Assembly: GCA_964385615.1 (NCBI GenBank)
Contig: CAYLPP010000013.1
Location: forward strand, 8,130 to 72,129
Length of the DNA: 64,000 nt
From: an uncultured bacterium
GTDB lineage: Bacteria > Omnitrophota > Omnitrophia > Omnitrophales > Aquincolibacteriaceae
Direction: 5' to 3'
In this document: positions 1,582-46,976 of the stretch, piece after piece
Position numbering within the stretch: position 1 is the stretch's first letter
How the letters are laid out: each line of letters begins with the position of its first letter
The notes under the pieces: generated by a model
Seen by the model: the letters and a program-made list of their open reading frames with translations, nothing else
Databases searched by the model: none
Told to the model about the DNA's origin: nothing
Made by a program: the position numbers and the translations under genes

Positions 1582-2712
1582 GTGCCTCTTACTGTTAATG
1601 ACCTTCAAGCTCTTTTGGTTTTGAACCAGGCGGGGAGCGGGGTGTGCTCTTCGCTTATGGAAATTTTGAAAGACTGCGCCCCCTCGGTTCTCTTGAAAAG
1701 AATTCTCGAAGAAAACTTTATGGACCGGGCGCAAGGGGTCAAAGAAGCGCTTAAAATTTTTGATCCCTGCAGGGAGTTGGAGGCTTGCGGCCGATCAGGA
1801 ATTGAGGTTCTGACGTTTTGGGATGAGGATTATCCGGAAATATTGCGCCAGATTTTTGATCCGCCGGCGGTGCTGTATGTGGCGGGGCGTATTTTAAAAG
1901 AAGATTCAGCCGCTGTCGCGATTGTAGGTTCGCGTCATGCCAGTCTCTACGGGGCTTGCCAAAGCCGTAAAATTGCGTCGGGACTGGCTGAATCCGGGAT
2001 TACGGTCGTTTCCGGAATGGCGCAGGGAATTGATCTTAGCGCGCATGAAGGTGCTCTTTCAGTTTCTCACGGACGGACACTGGCGATACTCGGATGCGGA
2101 TTGCATACGGATTATCCACGGCACCGAAAAAAAATTCAGGAAAAAATTTGTGAGCGGGGAGCGGTTCTCAGCGAATATTCTTTAACCATGCCGCCGCTTC
2201 CTGAAAATTTTCCGAAACGGAACCGGTTGATTTCAGGATTGAGTCTTGGAGTGCTGGTGGTTGAAGCGCATCAAAAAAGCGGTTCTCTAATTACAGCGCA
2301 ACTGGCTCTTGATCAGGGGCGGGATGTTTTTGCCCTGCCCGGTTCGGTAGACGCCATGAATTCAAAAGGAACTCATCAGCTGATCAAACAAGGGGCTTAT
2401 CTCGCCGAAAACGCGCAGGATATTCTGGAGGTTTTGAAACTTGATTTGGACTGGGTTTCATTGAGAGACCAAAACCCGGAAAATATTCTTGAGAGAAATT
2501 CGTTGGAAAACAGAAGTCTGGAAGAAATGAAAATTCTCCAGTCACTTAAGGCCGGTCCCAGAACAAGAGAAGAAGTGATGGATACCCTTTCTTGTCATAG
2601 TCCGGGGCAGGGGGCGGTATTATTGACCTCTTTGGAGCTGAAAAGGGTCATCCGCCGGCGGTTAGACGGCCGTTATGAGTTGTTATCTTCTGCCTCAGGA
2701 ACGCTTCTTTAA
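1582..2712 (+). CDS. dprA: DNA processing protein A (DprA/Smf)
   Basis: AIVGSRHASLYG...VVSGMAQGIDLSAHEGAL and a Rossmann-like DprA core; 376 aa with a C-terminal winged-helix-like tail. Confidence 0.85.
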   Translation: MPLTVNDLQALLVLNQAGSGVCSSLMEILKDCAPSVLLKRILEENFMDRAQGVKEALKIFDPCRELEACGRSGIEVLTFWDEDYPEILRQIFDPPAVLYVAGRILKEDSAAVAIVGSRHASLYGACQSRKIASGLAESGITVVSGMAQGIDLSAHEGALSVSHGRTLAILGCGLHTDYPRHRKKIQEKICERGAVLSEYSLTMPPLPENFPKRNRLISGLSLGVLVVEAHQKSGSLITAQLALDQGRDVFALPGSVDAMNSKGTHQLIKQGAYLAENAQDILEVLKLDLDWVSLRDQNPENILERNSLENRSLEEMKILQSLKAGPRTREEVMDTLSCHSPGQGAVLLTSLELKRVIRRRLDGRYELLSSASGTLL

Positions 2713-2737
2713 GACTTTTGAAGGGGTATAAAGTTAC

Positions 2738-2766
2738 TTGCGGGGTATGCCGAAACAGGGCATAAT
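2738..2766 (+). promoter_or_regulatory. Putative sigma70-type promoter (TTGCGG, 17 nt, CATAAT) upstream of the RDD gene
   Basis: Hexamers and spacing read directly from the sequence; the AAAGGAG Shine-Dalgarno lies 9 nt before the ATG at 2817. Confidence 0.35.
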
Positions 2767-2798
2767 ACTTAAACAGTTATCGTTTACATTTCAAGCTC

Positions 2799-3224
2799 TT
2801 GAAAGGAGTTCAAAGTATGGAAAATTTTGGCGGATCCCTCGGTGGGGCTACGGCTCCCAAAGGCAGACGTTTTGCCGCGGGTGTGATTGATTTGATCATC
2901 ATTCCCATTATTCTCGGTTTGATCCTCGGTATTATCCTTCTGAATGTTCCCGAAGGGATTCGCAGTGTTATTCTGGTGCTTGTGAACATCCTCTGGCTTA
3001 TTGTCCGTGATGCTGTGTATTCTCCGGGCCGTGCCATGGTAGGTTTGAAGCTGATCAGCCTTGATGGTGCTAAAGTGACCTGGCTTCAGTCTTTAATCCG
3101 GAACGTTCTTTTGATCATCCCGTTTGTGCTGGTAGTGGGCTACATCGTTGAGATCGTGGCTTTGATTACCAAGGGTGAGCGTGTGGCGGATGGTTGGGCC
3201 AAGACGCGTGTGGTTCTTGCTTAA
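2799..3224 (+). CDS. RDD-family membrane protein (likely true start ATG 2817)
   Basis: RRFAAGVIDLIIIPIILGLILGIILL... and multi-TM composition typical of the RDD family; a strong AAAGGAG lies before ATG 2817. Confidence 0.6.
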   Translation: MKGVQSMENFGGSLGGATAPKGRRFAAGVIDLIIIPIILGLILGIILLNVPEGIRSVILVLVNILWLIVRDAVYSPGRAMVGLKLISLDGAKVTWLQSLIRNVLLIIPFVLVVGYIVEIVALITKGERVADGWAKTRVVLA

Positions 3225-3251
3225 AAATTGATCTAAAGCCTTATTCTAAAA

Positions 3252-3290
3252 GGCCTTCCCTGATTTTCAGGGGAGGCCTTTTTTATTTTA
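3252..3290 (+). terminator. Rho-independent terminator (ggccttccctg/caggggaggcc stem plus TTTTTTATTTTA)
   Basis: An 11-bp stem with one G-U wobble, a 6-nt loop and a U-tract, 28 nt after the RDD stop. Confidence 0.7.
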
Positions 3291-3296
3291 TTTGCG

Positions 3297-3314
3297 TCAT
3301 TCCTGCAGGAATGA
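3297..3314. promoter_or_regulatory. Perfect 18-bp palindrome TCATTCCTGCAGGAATGA (candidate operator for a dimeric regulator)
   Basis: An exact inverted repeat seen in the sequence, between the terminator and the start of the 3342 ORF. Confidence 0.35.
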
Positions 3315-3341
3315 TACCTTTTATACCAAGGACGTGAACTT

Positions 3342-3734
3342 GTGAAAAAGAAGAGCTCGAAAAAGAAAGAAACCGATTTTACCAATGCAGCCGGTTCGCT
3401 TGCGTTTCATACCGATATGGCGCATCTGAAAAAGCAGGTGCAGAAACTGCTTGAACAATCCACCAAGGCGGATGAGCGGATCCAGGACCTGGAAATTCAT
3501 GTTAATCTCTTAACCCGTTTACTTACAACTCTTTGCGTTGAGAAGTTCGGTATGCGGATTGGTGTCTTAAAGCGCATGATCAAGCGGATTGAAAAAGAAG
3601 CTATCCGCGACTCTCAGATTTCTCACCTTGAAGCACTCTACAAGCTTTCCGCATCAATGGATAAGAAAGGCCCGGATAAAGGTTCCGGCCCTTCAGCTTC
3701 CGGTAAAAACGACCCTTGGGAAGATATTTCCTAG
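3342..3734 (+). CDS. Hypothetical protein, Lys-rich N-terminus and predicted coiled coil
   Basis: 130-aa ORF with coding-like composition and no recognisable domain; the N-terminus reads MKKKSSKKKE. Confidence 0.45.
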   Translation: MKKKSSKKKETDFTNAAGSLAFHTDMAHLKKQVQKLLEQSTKADERIQDLEIHVNLLTRLLTTLCVEKFGMRIGVLKRMIKRIEKEAIRDSQISHLEALYKLSASMDKKGPDKGSGPSASGKNDPWEDIS

Positions 3735-38079: not shown

Positions 38080-38237
38080 GAAGTTTTCCTATCTACAAAA
38101 GTCTTAGGCAGCCGTATTTTTGGAATCTTTCAGATAGCTAGTCTTTTCTAGCAATTAACAAACCGTTCTTGTTTTGATAGCGTAGACATAATATCTTCTA
38201 TTTAAGAACTTAATCTAGCCAAGAAAAGGGGTTCATC

Positions 38238-40355
38238 ATGAAAATCGAGAAGTTTCTATCCGTTCTTTTGAGTGTCTTTATGGTGACAGCCGGTATTCCA
38301 TACTCTTCGGGGTATGCTGATCTATCGGCACCTGATGCGGGGGGAGCCCCTGTTAATAATTTGGGACAAAACTCCGGAACGCCTGAAAAGCCACTTGCTG
38401 AGGAGGCTCAACAGGAAAAAGAAGAAGAAAAGCCCGCAGATGCAGGTTCTGATCCGTTTAGTAATGAATTTTTGATGAGCGGCGGTGTCAATTTGTCACA
38501 AAGCCAGCCGGTACAAACTTATACCGATACCGTTTCGCAAGCTGAATCCAAAGTTCCTCCCGTGACTCAGCCCGCGGTTAATGACACGCTTCAGTACGGA
38601 GAGATAAATTCTTCTGCCGGTGGAATGGTTCAAACCACGGAAAGCGTAAAAAATGAAAGAGATATTCAAAAAATCTCTTTAGCCAATTCTGAAGAAAGTG
38701 AAAAAGAACCGCAATCTTTTGTGAGTGGCTCAGAGCTTGAGAGGTCAATTCAAGCCACGGCCGAAGGTTTTTTGAATGTTCAGGCAGATTCTCTTGATGT
38801 TTTACCTGCAGTAGACAGCGTTTCTTCTTTGTCCTCAGCTGATTCTGAGGGAGAACTCATTAGTGATGAGACTGCGGACGAGGCTTATAGCTTTACTTCA
38901 GAAGAAAAAAGCGCTCTAAAATATATTGATTTTTTAGCCAATTATGACGGTAGTGAATTAACGCCTGAGATTTTTAAGGATAATCCTGAGTTTGCGCAGG
39001 TTCTGCTGGCGTTGACTTTGGTGATGCTTAACGGCGGCGGGGACGTTCCCGAAAGTTACGGCCCTCAGCTTAAGAAGATGATTGAAAATGGGTATGACCC
39101 AAATCAGATTGCAGTGCAGTTGATGCAGGTGCTTGATAAGGGGGTTTGGGACACTATCCGCAAGAAGGCCGCGAAGTTTAACCTGACGGAACTTGGAATC
39201 GATATCCATTCGGACGATTTCAAAACTTTCAGCGCGCTGGCTCAAAAAATCCGGGAAAAGCATGATCAGATGGTCAAGGATTACGCTGACGGTAAAATAA
39301 AACAAGAAAAAATTGATGCCGCGGAAACTCAGCTGGCCGTATTTGTTTCCATTCTTTATAGAGCGATGGCGTCGCCTAAAGGGGATCAGGCAGTGCCGAG
39401 TTTCAAAACCAAGGACGGTAAAACTTTTTGTGCGAATTGCGCGGGCGCCAATAGGATCGTAACTGTGCTTTTCGCATCCTTTGGAATGGCGGATCAGTAT
39501 TTTTTGGTTCATGGATTCGCGGATACCGGAAAGGGTGAGGCTGAAGCGCATGAATGGGGTTATTTAAAACTAACGGCTCAGGACGCGAAAGCGGAGGAGA
39601 AAGACACGAGGATTATCAATATCGATATGGGACTTCAGAAGTTGGCCGGCGGTTTGAAATTATCGGCTTTGACCGGACCAGGAAAAGTGGCCATTCCCCG
39701 AGGAAACCCGATTTTATACGTGCGGGCCAAAACGGTCATTTTGAGTAAAATTCCGGCGTATAAATATGAAGGCCTAGTCACCGCCGTTAAAATCGCTGAA
39801 GATGCGATGATTAAAGCCAATGAATTGATGACGAAAGCGAAAGATTTGGATGACCCGAAGGCAAAAAATGCCAAGGTAATTGAAGCCGTGAAAGAACTTG
39901 CCAAGGCTTTGGCTTATCTGAAGCTGGTGGAAAAGGCTTATCCCGGCCAGACGAGGTCGGAATTTTTGAGCACGCTCTGGCTTGGGAAGATGGTAAATCC
40001 TCTGGGGCAGAATGTGGATAAAATTTCTGATGCCATCAAGTTTCTTGAAAAAACAATTTCCACTGTTAACGAAAAGCTTCCGAAAGATCAAAAGATTGAA
40101 ATTCCGGAAACCAGCGGTGTTAAGATTGCGCTGGGGGTTAAGAGCCCTGATACCGAAACATCCCTGACGGCCGTGTCTTTGGAGCCTATTTCGGCGAATT
40201 TGACGCAGGTTCTGGCAGATTCATTCCCTGATGTGCAGAATTCCTCGATGATTTTTGTTAACGCGGTCAGCATTGAGACGAACACTGGGGAAGAATTGGC
40301 CGCATCTGACCTCCCGGCGGGATCCGATTCGGTTTCGGAAAATGAGCCGAATTAA
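38238..40355 (+). CDS. Large secreted hypothetical protein (705 aa) with a central transglutaminase-like (papain-fold Cys/His/Asp) core
   Basis: A signal peptide (MKIEKFLSVLLSVFMVTAG) and an acidic low-complexity N-terminus. GKTFCANCAGANRIVTVLFASFGMADQYFLVHGF, then EAHEWGYLKL, then RIINIDMG align by eye to the transglutaminase-core pattern (C...AR.LGIPAR.V.G / HAW.EV / D). Gene GC is lower than its neighbours and 158 nt of AT-rich DNA lie upstream. Confidence 0.5.
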   Translation: MKIEKFLSVLLSVFMVTAGIPYSSGYADLSAPDAGGAPVNNLGQNSGTPEKPLAEEAQQEKEEEKPADAGSDPFSNEFLMSGGVNLSQSQPVQTYTDTVSQAESKVPPVTQPAVNDTLQYGEINSSAGGMVQTTESVKNERDIQKISLANSEESEKEPQSFVSGSELERSIQATAEGFLNVQADSLDVLPAVDSVSSLSSADSEGELISDETADEAYSFTSEEKSALKYIDFLANYDGSELTPEIFKDNPEFAQVLLALTLVMLNGGGDVPESYGPQLKKMIENGYDPNQIAVQLMQVLDKGVWDTIRKKAAKFNLTELGIDIHSDDFKTFSALAQKIREKHDQMVKDYADGKIKQEKIDAAETQLAVFVSILYRAMASPKGDQAVPSFKTKDGKTFCANCAGANRIVTVLFASFGMADQYFLVHGFADTGKGEAEAHEWGYLKLTAQDAKAEEKDTRIINIDMGLQKLAGGLKLSALTGPGKVAIPRGNPILYVRAKTVILSKIPAYKYEGLVTAVKIAEDAMIKANELMTKAKDLDDPKAKNAKVIEAVKELAKALAYLKLVEKAYPGQTRSEFLSTLWLGKMVNPLGQNVDKISDAIKFLEKTISTVNEKLPKDQKIEIPETSGVKIALGVKSPDTETSLTAVSLEPISANLTQVLADSFPDVQNSSMIFVNAVSIETNTGEELAASDLPAGSDSVSENEPN

Positions 40356-40438: not shown

Positions 40439-41161
40439 CTAGTCGTATTTCTCGAAGTGGATTTGTTCTTTGGTGAAGCCGATTTCAAGCGCGGTTTTGT
40501 TGACCTCGTTGATCATGTTGGTCAGACCGCAAATGTAGATGGATGTGTCCGCGGGGCTGGTTATGTATTTCTTCAGCATATTCTGCACGTATTCTGTTTC
40601 GCCGTTCCATTGACCCGGCTTGGGGCGTGAAACCGTGAAGACATTGTGAAGATTCGAATGTTTCTTCGCCAGCTCTTCAAATTCTTCCTTGTAAAGAATG
40701 TCTTCCACAAACCGGTTCCCGAAAATGTTCCAGATCTCCACGGGCGCGTTTTCTTTTAAAAGAACATGAATGGTTGAGCGGAAAGGCGCGATACCGGTTC
40801 CCGTTGAAATATAGACAATTTTTTTGGGCAGAGGTTTCGGGGCGGTGAATCGTCCCAAAGGTCCCTGAATTGTAAGTTTGTCGCCTTCTTTCAGGGTCCA
40901 AGCGTAACCCGTGCCGATTCCCCCAGGAACTAATTTAATGCAAAGGTCGAGATAACCCTTCCAGATAGGAGGGGATGCGATAGAATAGGCGCGTTTAAGC
41001 GCTTTGCGCTCGGGGGTTTCAGGAATGAGAATGTTGACGAATTGGCCGGCATCAAAATCAAAAACGGTGCCTGGTTCGAAGACAAGTTTGAAATGGCGTG
41101 TCTGTTGAACGCCCATTTCAGCAATTTTTTCTACAGTAGTAGTAAAGATTCCGGCTTTCAT
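40439..41161 (-). CDS. Ferredoxin-NADP reductase-like FAD/NAD(P)-binding oxidoreductase
   Basis: RAYSIASPP (R-x-Y-S FAD motif), GPLGRF and ISTGTGIAPFRS (NAD(P)-binding motif). Confidence 0.75.
   Translation of the reverse strand: MKAGIFTTTVEKIAEMGVQQTRHFKLVFEPGTVFDFDAGQFVNILIPETPERKALKRAYSIASPPIWKGYLDLCIKLVPGGIGTGYAWTLKEGDKLTIQGPLGRFTAPKPLPKKIVYISTGTGIAPFRSTIHVLLKENAPVEIWNIFGNRFVEDILYKEEFEELAKKHSNLHNVFTVSRPKPGQWNGETEYVQNMLKKYITSPADTSIYICGLTNMINEVNKTALEIGFTKEQIHFEKYD

Positions 41162-45509: not shown

Positions 45510-46976
<1,467 letters not shown>

What the first reader, a model, noticed from the sequence alone, without database searches (positions are those of the whole stretch)
38080..40355. 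Low-GC islet encoding a 705-aa secreted protein with a cryptic transglutaminase-like cysteine-peptidase core
A 158-nt AT-rich spacer (versus ~52% GC flanks) precedes a gene whose composition is visibly AT-shifted. The protein has a signal peptide, a long acidic low-complexity N-terminal region and, around aa 390-470, a C/H/D arrangement matching the transglutaminase-core pattern (FCANCAGANRIVTVLFASFGMADQYFLVHGF ... AHEWGYL ... IDMG). Secreted transglutaminase-like proteins include toxins/effectors and cell-envelope amidases. Composition suggests horizontal acquisition; no homolog is recognisable by eye.
Basis: partly seen in the sequence, partly recalled or inferred. Interest (0 to 1): 0.65.

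Follow-up and report, generated by a model that had tools for sequence, protein, structure and literature searches.

The report
Orphan exported protein with lone conserved cysteine
This is a real gene for an exported, very fast-evolving protein known from only two uncultured bacteria; its proposed transglutaminase-like identity failed every test I could run, so it remains an ordinary orphan with one useful lead, a single conserved cysteine.

Summary
The ORF (38238-40355, +, 705 aa), its signal peptide, acidic disordered tails and the AT-rich 158-nt upstream spacer are all present. The composition shift is real but modest: gene GC is 46.0% against 50.2% for the window, and GC3 is the lowest of 54 genes (z = -2.3).

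The protein is a near-ORFan. Searches of 5.8 billion clusters and an exhaustive HMMER scan of 1.84 billion representatives returned only the protein itself.

One homolog was found by synteny in MAG contig CAZKMJ010000026.1 (locus L001). It is a 1010-aa exported protein at the same site, 26% identical over the roughly 395-aa core, while flanking genes are 71-92% identical. At least ten more distant relatives have the FNR-like and NUDIX genes directly adjacent. The gene is therefore an old insertion specific to this clade, not a recent islet.

The homolog's only cysteine aligns with C401, and H438 and D463 are also conserved.

The transglutaminase-core assignment is not supported. Pfam and a purpose-built PF01841 HMM give no hit. 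hhalign gives 0.2% probability, no better than shuffled columns, whereas human TG2 and PNGase controls score 96%. Single-sequence AlphaFold models were too poor to decide the fold.

My best guess is an extracytoplasmic thiol-dependent enzyme of an undescribed family. Interest is low to moderate.

The parts
38080..38237 (+). AT-rich intergenic region upstream of the gene (158 nt, 34.2% GC), presumed promoter and regulatory region. Blocks conserved with L001 include TTAACAAACCGTTCTTGTTT (38155-38174) and TTAAGAAC (38202-38209). There is a -10-like TAATAT at 38189-38194 and a Shine-Dalgarno-like AAGGGG at 38226-38231.
   Evidence: Composition. Alignment with L001:9365-9570(-). Motif coordinates. 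The sigma-70 consensus scan called no site inside the spacer, so the promoter is inferred only.
38238..40355 (+). Coding sequence of the 705-aa exported orphan protein (W705); stop codon TAA at 40353-40355.
   Evidence: ORF. Codon-position GC of 54/38/46%. Protein-level homolog at the syntenic site, 76.6 bits against 17.3 +/- 2.5 bits for locally shuffled controls.
38238..38318 (+). Type I (Sec) signal peptide, aa 1-27, with predicted cleavage after G-Y-A. There is no lipobox.
   Evidence: Sequence and hydrophobicity window. The two L001 proteins have the same design (SFA|Q, SYA|E). This is rule-based; no signal-peptide predictor was available.
38319..38912 (+). N-terminal acidic, Ser/Glu/Gln-rich region predicted to be disordered (aa 28-225, net charge -28). 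It cannot be aligned with the homolog.
   Evidence: It is the source of the weak PADLOC Cas12c match, which I judge non-specific.
38913..40097 (+). Conserved core (aa 226-620, net charge +4): a helical N-part, a strand-rich middle carrying the C/H/D residues, and a helical C-part. This is the only part shared with L001 LA1010.
   Evidence: BLASTP 26% identity over 418 aa, E 2e-19. Alignment A1. Secondary structure from the low-confidence models.
39438..39440 (+). Codon of Cys401 (motif N-C-x-G-A-x-R), the candidate nucleophile. It aligns with Cys352, the only Cys in the 1010-aa homolog.
39549..39551 (+). Codon of His438 (motif H-x-[WF]-G-[YI]-L), the only His conserved between the two homologs.
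39624..39626 (+). Codon of Asp463 (motif I-x-I-D-x-G), the candidate third triad residue. D393 and D419 are also conserved, so the assignment is not unique.
40098..40352 (+). C-terminal acidic tail predicted to be disordered (aa 621-705, net charge -12). It contains a TSLTAVSLEP motif (about aa 641-650) resembling the TSLSYE motifs of both L001 proteins. No C-terminal sorting signal or transmembrane segment was seen.
40326..40353 (+). Weak hairpin followed by an A/T-rich tract at the end of the gene, a possible terminator. The gene converges on the FNR-like gene (40439-41161, -).
   Evidence: Consensus scan, (10 pairs, 3 G-C). It is a consensus match only.

Best explanation
The window encodes a real, Sec-exported protein belonging to a two-member orphan family.

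Shown:
- The gene was inserted between the FNR-like and MutT-type NUDIX genes in the common ancestor of the window organism and the MAG that carries L001.
- It has kept its AT-rich upstream region.
- It has since diverged far faster than its neighbours.
- It consists of a signal peptide, an acidic disordered spacer, a conserved core of about 395 aa, and a second acidic tail.

Inferred:
- The core is a thiol-dependent enzyme (hydrolase or acyl-transferase type) that works outside the cytoplasm.
- Cys401 would be the nucleophile, His438 the general base, and a conserved Asp (D463, or alternatively D419 or D393) would orient the His.
- The order and spacing are those of papain-like Cys-His-Asp enzymes.

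It is not a detectable member of the transglutaminase-core family or of any other described family. The substrate is unknown. The fast divergence and the variable partner gene suggest an exposed, conflict-driven or niche-specific role.
For: - Gene reality and homology: a 705-aa ORF. The syntenic homolog scores 76.6 bits, E 9e-20, against a maximum of 29.6 bits in 200 local shuffles.
- Export: a canonical n/h/c signal peptide with small residues at -3 and -1 in all three proteins at the locus.
- Insertion: FNR and NUDIX are adjacent in at least 10 related loci but separated by these genes only in the window and L001. The upstream region has conserved blocks.
- Fast evolution: 26% identity against 71-92% for seven flanking genes.
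- Thiol enzyme idea: LA1010 has exactly one Cys in 1010 aa, and it aligns with C401. Only one His is shared. Chance co-alignment of such rare residues in about 390 columns is roughly 2/390 for Cys and about 5% for His, by my own estimate.
- A lone Cys in an exported protein cannot form an intramolecular disulfide.
- The C-to-H spacing is 37 (window) and 35 (L001); the H-to-D spacing is 25 and 19.
- The low-confidence cropped model starts a helix at C401, puts H438 in a strand, and puts D463 at the end of the next strand.
Against: - No fold evidence. The AlphaFold models have pLDDT 29-52 across the C/H/D segment. Foldseek returns nothing at E<=0.001.
- The helix after C401 is absent from the full-length model and is ambiguous by Chou-Fasman propensities.
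- No HMM or profile similarity to any cysteine-enzyme family.
- Local conservation around His and Asp (about 20% in 30-residue windows) is no higher than elsewhere in the core. The best-conserved block is the N-terminal PE-FK-NPE motif, not the putative active site.
- With only two sequences, conservation of three residues is weak statistics.
- Three Asp residues are conserved, so the triad was chosen after the fact.
Confidence: 0.4

Rival explanations
1. Non-catalytic exported protein. The core would be a structural, adhesive or ligand-binding module of the cell envelope or extracellular matrix, and the acidic tails would act as spacers or cation-binding regions. The lone Cys would be kept for an intermolecular disulfide, a covalent attachment or metal binding, not for catalysis.
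For: - Most of the core is predicted helical, and the only confidently modelled parts are long helical hairpins (aa 507-567 and 596-613, pLDDT about 80).
- The best-conserved motifs lie outside the C/H/D segment.
- L001 pairs the homolog with a second exported, Cys-free, coiled-coil-like and Trp-rich protein that shares its N-terminus and a TSLSYE motif. That looks more like parts of an assembly than an enzyme plus partner.
- There is no enzyme-family signal anywhere.
Against: - The sole Cys of a 1010-aa protein aligning with C401, together with the only shared His, is hard to explain without a specific chemical role.
- The strand-rich middle segment with the conserved N-C-x-G-A-x-R, H-x-x-G-x-L and I-D-x-G motifs looks like a compact functional centre.
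Confidence: 0.3
2. One reading: the core is a cryptic, highly diverged member of the transglutaminase-like (PF01841-type) superfamily, acting as a secreted protease, amidase or cross-linking effector.
For: - The C-to-H-to-D order and spacing fall in the range seen in the real members examined here: 3ISR C-to-H 34 and 6G49 C-to-H 44, with H-to-D 15-16, and TG2 58 and 23.
- By eye, C-helix-G-[MI]-x-x-[QR]-Y and H-x-W resemble the family motifs.
- The best (non-significant) hhalign path does place H438 on the family His.
Against: - Pfam PF01841 gives no hit at E<=10, including on the isolated 105-120-aa fragments.
- An HMM of 120 PF01841 proteins plus two PDB segments gives no hit with filters off at E<=1000.
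- hhalign gives probability 0.2% and score 9.6, against a column-shuffle mean of 10.6 +/- 2.7, with 56% of shuffles scoring as high or higher.
- The same profile finds human TG2 at 96% (E 5e-9) and a 33-residue PNGase fragment at 96.5%.
- The hhalign path omits the Cys altogether.
Confidence: 0.15
3. A recently acquired toxin or effector islet, delivered by a mobile element and perhaps paired with an immunity gene.
For: - It has the lowest GC3 in the window and an AT-rich upstream spacer.
- It is absent from most relatives at this site.
- The same junction holds other accessory cargo in relatives, including a transposase plus an RHS/YD-repeat gene in L007.
Against: - It is shared, with its upstream region, by a genome whose core genes are only 71-92% identical, so the insertion is old.
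- The homolog shows the same GC3 deficit in its own genome, 0.52 against 0.60-0.68.
- There is no integrase, transposase, tRNA or boundary repeat in the window locus.
- There is no small downstream immunity-like ORF, since the gene converges directly on the FNR-like gene.
- There are no hits in the phage, defence or viral collections beyond noise.
Confidence: 0.07
4. Not a gene: a long chance ORF in AT-shifted DNA.
For: There is no homolog in the very large protein collections.
Against: - The ORF is 2.1 kb, with coding-type codon-position GC.
- A protein-level homolog in the same orientation sits at the same site in L001, far above shuffled controls.
- The signal-peptide design is conserved.
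Confidence: 0.01

Closest known systems
Transglutaminase-like / papain-like Cys-His-Asp enzymes (Pfam PF01841 Transglut_core; examples 3ISR, TgpA 6G49, PNGase 2F4M, human TG2 6KZB)
   Same: Cys, then His, then Asp in that order, with comparable spacing. The Cys is followed by a long hydrophobic segment ending in Gly. His and Asp sit in hydrophobic, strand-like segments. Many bacterial members are exported.
   Different: There is no statistically detectable sequence or profile similarity, although controls as remote as animal TG2 are detected. The fold is undetermined. The core is much larger (about 395 aa) and has flanking helical parts not typical of the family.
Other clan CA cysteine peptidase/amidase families acting on the envelope (NlpC/P60, CHAP, C39, BTLCP)
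   Same: They are extracytoplasmic, with a single catalytic Cys at the start of a hydrophobic helix and a downstream His plus a polar third residue. The 'N-C-x-G' and 'G-D-L' motifs in LA1010 recall 'D-C-S-G' and 'G-D-L-V-F' of NlpC/P60; this comparison is from memory and was not tested statistically.
   Different: No Pfam or NCBIfam model of any of these families matches, even at E<=10. The C-to-H spacing (35-37) is shorter than I recall for NlpC/P60, CHAP or C39.
Lineage-specific, rapidly evolving exported ORFan genes at chromosomal variable spots
   Same: It is restricted to a narrow clade and sits at a junction that carries different accessory genes in relatives. Its GC3 is lower than its neighbours', it has long disordered acidic regions, and its divergence is extreme relative to the flanks.
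   Different: It retains a sizeable conserved core with a lone conserved Cys and a conserved upstream region. This argues for a maintained, specific function rather than drifting or degenerating DNA.

Membership tests
Transglutaminase-like core (Pfam PF01841) | Significant match to the family HMM | tested here: not met
   Pfam-A gives 0 families at E<=10 for the full protein, for LA1010 and for the isolated C/H/D fragments. An HMM built from 120 PF01841 proteins plus the 3ISR and 6G49 segments gives no hit with --max at E<=1000.
Transglutaminase-like core (Pfam PF01841) | Profile-profile similarity at the level shown by remote bona fide members | tested here: not met
   hhalign probability is 0.2%, P = 0.36, score 9.6. 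Of 200 column-shuffled controls, 56% score as high or higher. Positive controls: TG2 96.0%, PNGase fragment 96.5%, 6G49 99.0%, 3ISR 99.7%.
Transglutaminase-like core (Pfam PF01841) | Cys, His and Asp in that order with family-like spacing, and conserved among homologs | tested here: met
   C401, H438 and D463 have spacings of 37 and 25. LA1010 C352, H387 and D406 have spacings of 35 and 19. All three residues are aligned and identical. Specificity is low: three Asp residues are conserved in the segment.
Transglutaminase-like core (Pfam PF01841) | Papain-like alpha+beta fold with Cys at a helix N-terminus facing His and Asp on adjacent strands | tested here: inconclusive
Transglutaminase-like core (Pfam PF01841) | Cys-dependent transamidase, protease or amidase activity | not testable with these tools
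   Requires biochemistry.
Other papain-like families (NlpC/P60, CHAP, Peptidase_C39, BTLCP, YopT-like, arylamine N-acetyltransferase) | Match to the family HMM | tested here: not met
   No Pfam-A or NCBIfam family at E<=10. No PDB sequence hit with the single sequence or the two-sequence profile.
Sec-exported protein with type I signal peptide | Basic n-region, 12-16-residue hydrophobic h-region, small residues at -3/-1, no lipobox Cys | tested here: met
   MKIEK / FLSVLLSVFMVTAGI / PYSSGYA|D, with Kyte-Doolittle windows above 1.4 only at aa 2-25 and 252-270. The pattern is the same in both L001 proteins. This is rule-based; no dedicated predictor was available.
Horizontally acquired genomic islet | Absent from the same site in related genomes | tested here: met
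   FNR is directly followed by NUDIX in L003, L004, L005, L008, L012, L013, L014, L018, L019 and L021. The gene is present only in the window and L001.
Horizontally acquired genomic islet | Composition outside the genome's range | tested here: inconclusive
   GC z = -2.2 and GC3 z = -2.3 (lowest of 54 genes), but codon-usage z is only -1.4. Downstream genes are also 46-48% GC. The homolog shows the same relative GC3 deficit in its own genome.
Horizontally acquired genomic islet | Mobility signatures (integrase or transposase, tRNA target, flanking direct repeats) or recent transfer | tested here: not met
   Neighbours are housekeeping genes. There is no tRNA or other Rfam hit in the 64 kb. Only short chance-level repeats occur. 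The locus and its upstream region are shared with a diverged genome.
Cas12c (PADLOC PDLC01665), considered only because of an unexpected hit | Match covering the conserved effector domains and shared by homologs | tested here: not met
   The hit is 24 bits, E 1.8e-6, and is confined to aa 93-195 of the non-conserved disordered region (profile positions 184-287 of 1035). The same stretch also touches a Type III methyltransferase model. The conserved core and LA1010 give nothing. The protein also has a signal peptide.

The most novel reading that the evidence does not exclude
W705 and LA1010 found a previously undescribed family of exported thiol enzymes. The family has a lone catalytic Cys, a Cys-His-Asp centre embedded in a large helical scaffold, and no detectable relationship to known cysteine-enzyme families. 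It is confined to a narrow uncultured lineage and evolves several-fold faster than the surrounding genome, because it takes part in a molecular conflict or in surface remodelling.
Probability: 0.2. Interest if true: 0.5.

Novelty: new variant of a known kind. Interest (0 to 1): 0.3.

Why it matters
If the thiol-enzyme reading holds, this would be a new sequence family, possibly a new fold variant, of extracytoplasmic cysteine enzymes from an uncultured lineage. It would also be a clean example of an accessory gene that has sat at one chromosomal junction while diverging to 26% identity as its neighbours stayed at 71-92%.

As things stand it is mainly a cautionary case. A convincing-looking C/H/D 'motif match' to transglutaminases does not survive calibrated profile tests. 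Orphan exported proteins with disordered acidic tails are common in metagenome-derived genomes, so the practical value is limited until more family members or a structure are available.

Tried and rejected
Searches that found no relative or no match:
1. Homolog searches with the full protein, the exhaustive representative library, GTDB species genomes, a two-sequence core profile against the protein collection, metagenome contigs and viral contigs. Only the protein itself was found.
2. Exact-match lookups of the protein and of neighbours (FNR-like, MetK) to find sister strains. Nothing is on record; one lookup was mis-specified.
3. PDB sequence searches with the protein and with the profile. 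They returned only noise: a designed minibinder and a short-chain dehydrogenase.
4. A literature search for the MAG's study accession found no papers.

Structure attempts:
6. The full-length single-sequence model had pLDDT 40 and the cropped core 53. Both are unusable for the C/H/D segment.
8. Chou-Fasman propensities as an independent check of the post-Cys helix were ambiguous.

Method problems and rejected leads:
9. MAFFT on three transglutaminase segments misaligned the His strand (A2). I replaced that set with 120 harvested PF01841 proteins.
10. The PADLOC Cas12c hit was followed through shuffles and sub-fragments and rejected as non-specific.
11. The PHROGs hits are noise, all at E>=0.05.
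12. The CXXC (C398-x-x-C401) as a redox or haem motif was rejected, because C398 is not conserved and no His follows.
13. An L,D-transpeptidase-like His-before-Cys arrangement was rejected, because no conserved His lies upstream of the Cys.
14. I looked for IS elements or boundary repeats around the gene and found none.
Full report
**Observation.** The window contains an ATG-initiated ORF at 38238-40355 (+) encoding 705 aa. The 158-nt spacer upstream (38080-38237) is 34.2% GC. That is within the lowest 0.2% of all 158-nt windows and is the most AT-rich of 14 intergenic regions (mean 43.2%, sd 4.6). The gene is 46.0% GC against 50.2% for the window (z = -2.2 for gene-length windows). Its GC3 of 0.462 is the lowest of 54 genes (z = -2.3), but its codon-usage log-likelihood is only 1.4 sd below the mean. 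The composition shift is therefore real but modest.

**Protein anatomy.**
- aa 1-27 form a canonical type I signal peptide (MKIEK / FLSVLLSVFMVTAGI / PYSSGYA|D). It has no lipobox.
- aa 28-225 are acidic and Ser/Glu/Gln-rich (net charge -28) and are predicted to be unstructured.
- aa 226-620 form a near-neutral core.
- aa 621-705 are a second acidic tail (net charge -12).
- The protein has only two Cys (398, 401) and four His.

**Homologs.**
- Pfam-A, NCBIfam and PDB sequences give nothing, even at E<=10.
- A word-indexed search of 5.8 billion protein clusters and an exhaustive phmmer scan of 1.84 billion representatives returned only the query itself. It is a singleton cluster from an NCBI contig of 75,871 bp.
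- GTDB species genomes, metagenome contigs and viral contigs gave no relative, with either the protein or a core profile.

**Context and origin.**
- The neighbours are housekeeping genes: MetK, AhcY, a FIST protein, a MutT-type NUDIX, then this gene. It converges on an FNR-like reductase, followed by a PAS/HAMP histidine kinase, a response regulator, PhoU, a NirDL-like protein and ThiC.
- Using the FIST gene as an anchor, I recovered one related genome fragment: L001, MAG contig CAZKMJ010000026.1. It is fully syntenic.
- Between NUDIX and FNR, L001 carries two tandem genes for exported proteins, LA1010 (1010 aa) and LB789 (789 aa).
- LA1010 is homologous to the window protein over its core only: 26% identity over 418 aa, E 2e-19. 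The score is 76.6 bits, against 17.3 +/- 2.5 (maximum 29.6) for 200 locally shuffled controls.
- The seven flanking genes are 71-92% identical. LB789 is unrelated to the window protein.
- The upstream intergenic regions share conserved blocks, and both are AT-rich (34% and 37% GC).
- Using the FNR-like gene as an anchor in metagenomes gave 21 more loci, with FNR 58-86% identical.
- In L003, L004, L005, L008, L012, L013, L014, L018, L019 and L021 the FNR gene is followed directly by NUDIX, with no intervening gene. None of these loci encodes a relative by tblastn or by an HMM of the core.
- The gene is therefore an insertion shared by the window organism and the L001 lineage. It is old enough that the core genes have diverged by 8-29%, and it has evolved far faster than its surroundings.
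- There is no integrase, tRNA, Rfam element or boundary repeat.
- LA1010 shows the same relative GC3 deficit in its own genome: 0.52 against 0.60-0.68. 'Islet' is right in the sense of clade-specific accessory DNA. 'Recent horizontal acquisition' is not supported.

**The C/H/D claim.**
- The residues are there, and they are constrained.
- In the core alignment (A1), C401, H438 and D463 are identical in both proteins. They sit within the motifs N-C-x-G-A-x-R, H-x-[WF]-G-[YI]-L and I-x-I-D-x-G.
- LA1010 has a single Cys in 1010 residues, and it aligns with C401. Only one His is shared. For residues this rare, chance co-alignment is unlikely: roughly 0.5% for Cys and 5% for His, by my estimate.
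- A lone Cys in an exported protein cannot form an internal disulfide.
- However, D393 and D419 are also conserved, so the 'triad' Asp is not unique.
- Local identity around His and Asp (about 20%) is no higher than elsewhere. The best-conserved block is an N-terminal PE-FK-NPE motif.

**Is it transglutaminase-like?** I tested this directly.
- A generic consensus, used only as bait, retrieved real family members from the PDB: 3ISR, TgpA 6G49 and PNGase 2F4M. It also retrieved 120 proteins that all carry the precomputed PF01841 label.
- An HMM built from them finds nothing in W705, LA1010 or LB789 with all filters off at E<=1000.
- hhalign of the W705/LA1010 C/H/D alignment against the family core gives probability 0.2% and score 9.6.
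- In a calibrated run, the same profile detects human TG2 residues 273-363 as a single sequence at 96.0% (E 5e-9). That sequence was verified against 6KZB. A 33-residue PNGase fragment scores 96.5%, 6G49 scores 99.0% and 3ISR scores 99.7%.
- In the same run, 200 column-shuffled versions of the W705/LA1010 alignment average 10.6 +/- 2.7, and 56% of them score at least as high as the real one.
- The resemblance seen by eye is therefore not above chance. The protein is at least much more remote from the family than animal transglutaminases and PNGase are.
- No other papain-like Pfam family matches either.

**Structure.**
- The full-length model has mean pLDDT 40, and the cropped core has 53. The C/H/D segment has pLDDT 29-52 in both.
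- The cropped model places a helix starting exactly at C401, H438 inside the second following strand, and D463 at the end of the third. This is the order expected for a papain-like centre.
- That helix is missing from the full-length model, and Chou-Fasman propensities are ambiguous.

**An unexpected hit.**
- PADLOC's Cas12c model matched aa 91-347 (E 1.8e-6). The hit survives for the native segment but not for the reversed version or eight shuffled versions.
- It maps entirely to aa 93-195 of the non-conserved disordered region. That stretch also touches a second Cas12c model and a Type III methyltransferase model.
- It is absent from the conserved core and from LA1010. I regard it as non-specific.

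**Interpretation.**
- Shown: this is a real, Sec-exported, clade-restricted and rapidly diverging protein, inserted at a junction that is variable in relatives, with a conserved core of about 395 aa and a lone conserved Cys.
- Inferred, at about 40% confidence: the core is an extracytoplasmic thiol-dependent enzyme using C401 and H438 plus an Asp, of a family not yet described.
- Rival, about 30%: it is a non-catalytic envelope or matrix protein in which the Cys serves another role. The largely helical prediction and the partnership in L001 with a second exported, Cys-free, repeat-rich protein sharing an N-terminus and a TSLSYE motif both fit this.
- The specific transglutaminase-superfamily reading keeps perhaps 15%, as a remote-fold possibility only.
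- A recent toxin islet (about 7%) and a spurious ORF (about 1%) are unlikely.

**Verdict.** The headline interpretation, a cryptic transglutaminase core, is not supported by calibrated tests. The horizontal-acquisition idea needs restating as an old, clade-specific insertion. Orphan exported proteins of this type are common in uncultured bacteria. The lone conserved cysteine is the one feature worth following. Interest is 0.3.

Noticed in passing
L006:2161-2658(+); L007:1450-1914(-) and 2251-2775(+); L015/L016 (L016:1801-2736(+), 2789-3625(-)); L019:11218-12159(-): The junction next to the FNR-like gene holds different accessory genes in different relatives. L006 has a prepilin-like gene. L007 has a DDE-type transposase plus an RHS/YD-repeat gene. 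L015 and L016 have a membrane protein plus a lipoprotein-like gene. L019 has a 314-aa exported protein beyond NUDIX. The site behaves as a variable spot in this lineage. The gene identities are from reading the N-terminal sequences only.
   Followed up: partly
L001:3983-6352(-) (LB789), directly downstream of LA1010 with overlapping stop and start codons: A second exported protein is present only in L001. It has no Cys and 16 Trp. It carries three repeats of an acidic helical module ending in [SD]-G-W (for example 'LRQSGWYGLGW', 'LIKSGWDSGEF', 'LKKDGWQGWPP'). It shares 39% identity over its first 46 aa with LA1010. It has no Pfam family above noise.
   Followed up: partly
window aa 641-650 (about 40158-40187); L001 LA1010 aa 584; LB789 aa 584 and 648: A short motif, [TA]-S-L-[ST]-[YA]-[EV]-x-x-S, follows the core in all three exported proteins of the locus: TSLTAVSLEP in the window, TSLSYETTS and ASLSYEVVS / TSLSYEVVS in L001. 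It may be a shared processing, docking or sorting motif.
   Followed up: no
window 38511-38822 (aa 93-195 of the protein): This stretch gives a weak, order-dependent match to PADLOC Cas12c model PDLC01665 (18.7-24 bits). It also touches PDLC01662 and a Type III methyltransferase model. Reversed and shuffled versions give nothing. The region is not conserved in the homolog. It is probably non-specific, but I have not explained it.
   Followed up: yes
window 38155-38174 and 38202-38209; L001:9387-9550(-): The intergenic region has conserved blocks upstream of both homologs: TTnACAAACCnTnCTTGTTT and TTAAGAAC. In L001 the second block is part of a GTTCTT-N4-AAGAAC palindrome. GTTCTT also occurs in the first block, which may indicate a shared regulator binding site.
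   Followed up: no
window 39806-39854: A 21-22-nt tandem repeat of 2.3 copies (78% matches) lies inside the helical C-part of the core. It encodes part of the K/A/D-rich stretch around aa 524-539.
   Followed up: no
window 1-64000: No Rfam family reaches its gathering score anywhere in the 64 kb: no tRNA, and no TPP riboswitch ahead of thiC at 45552. 49 of 56 heuristically called genes lie on the + strand, and GC skew is positive throughout, consistent with a single replichore arm.
   Followed up: no
L003:1349-1650: The roughly 300-bp FNR-NUDIX spacer in L003 looks internally repetitive when translated, with recurring '...LTH..KG...' and 'RANT' strings in several frames. It may hold short interspersed repeats at the empty site.
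   Followed up: no
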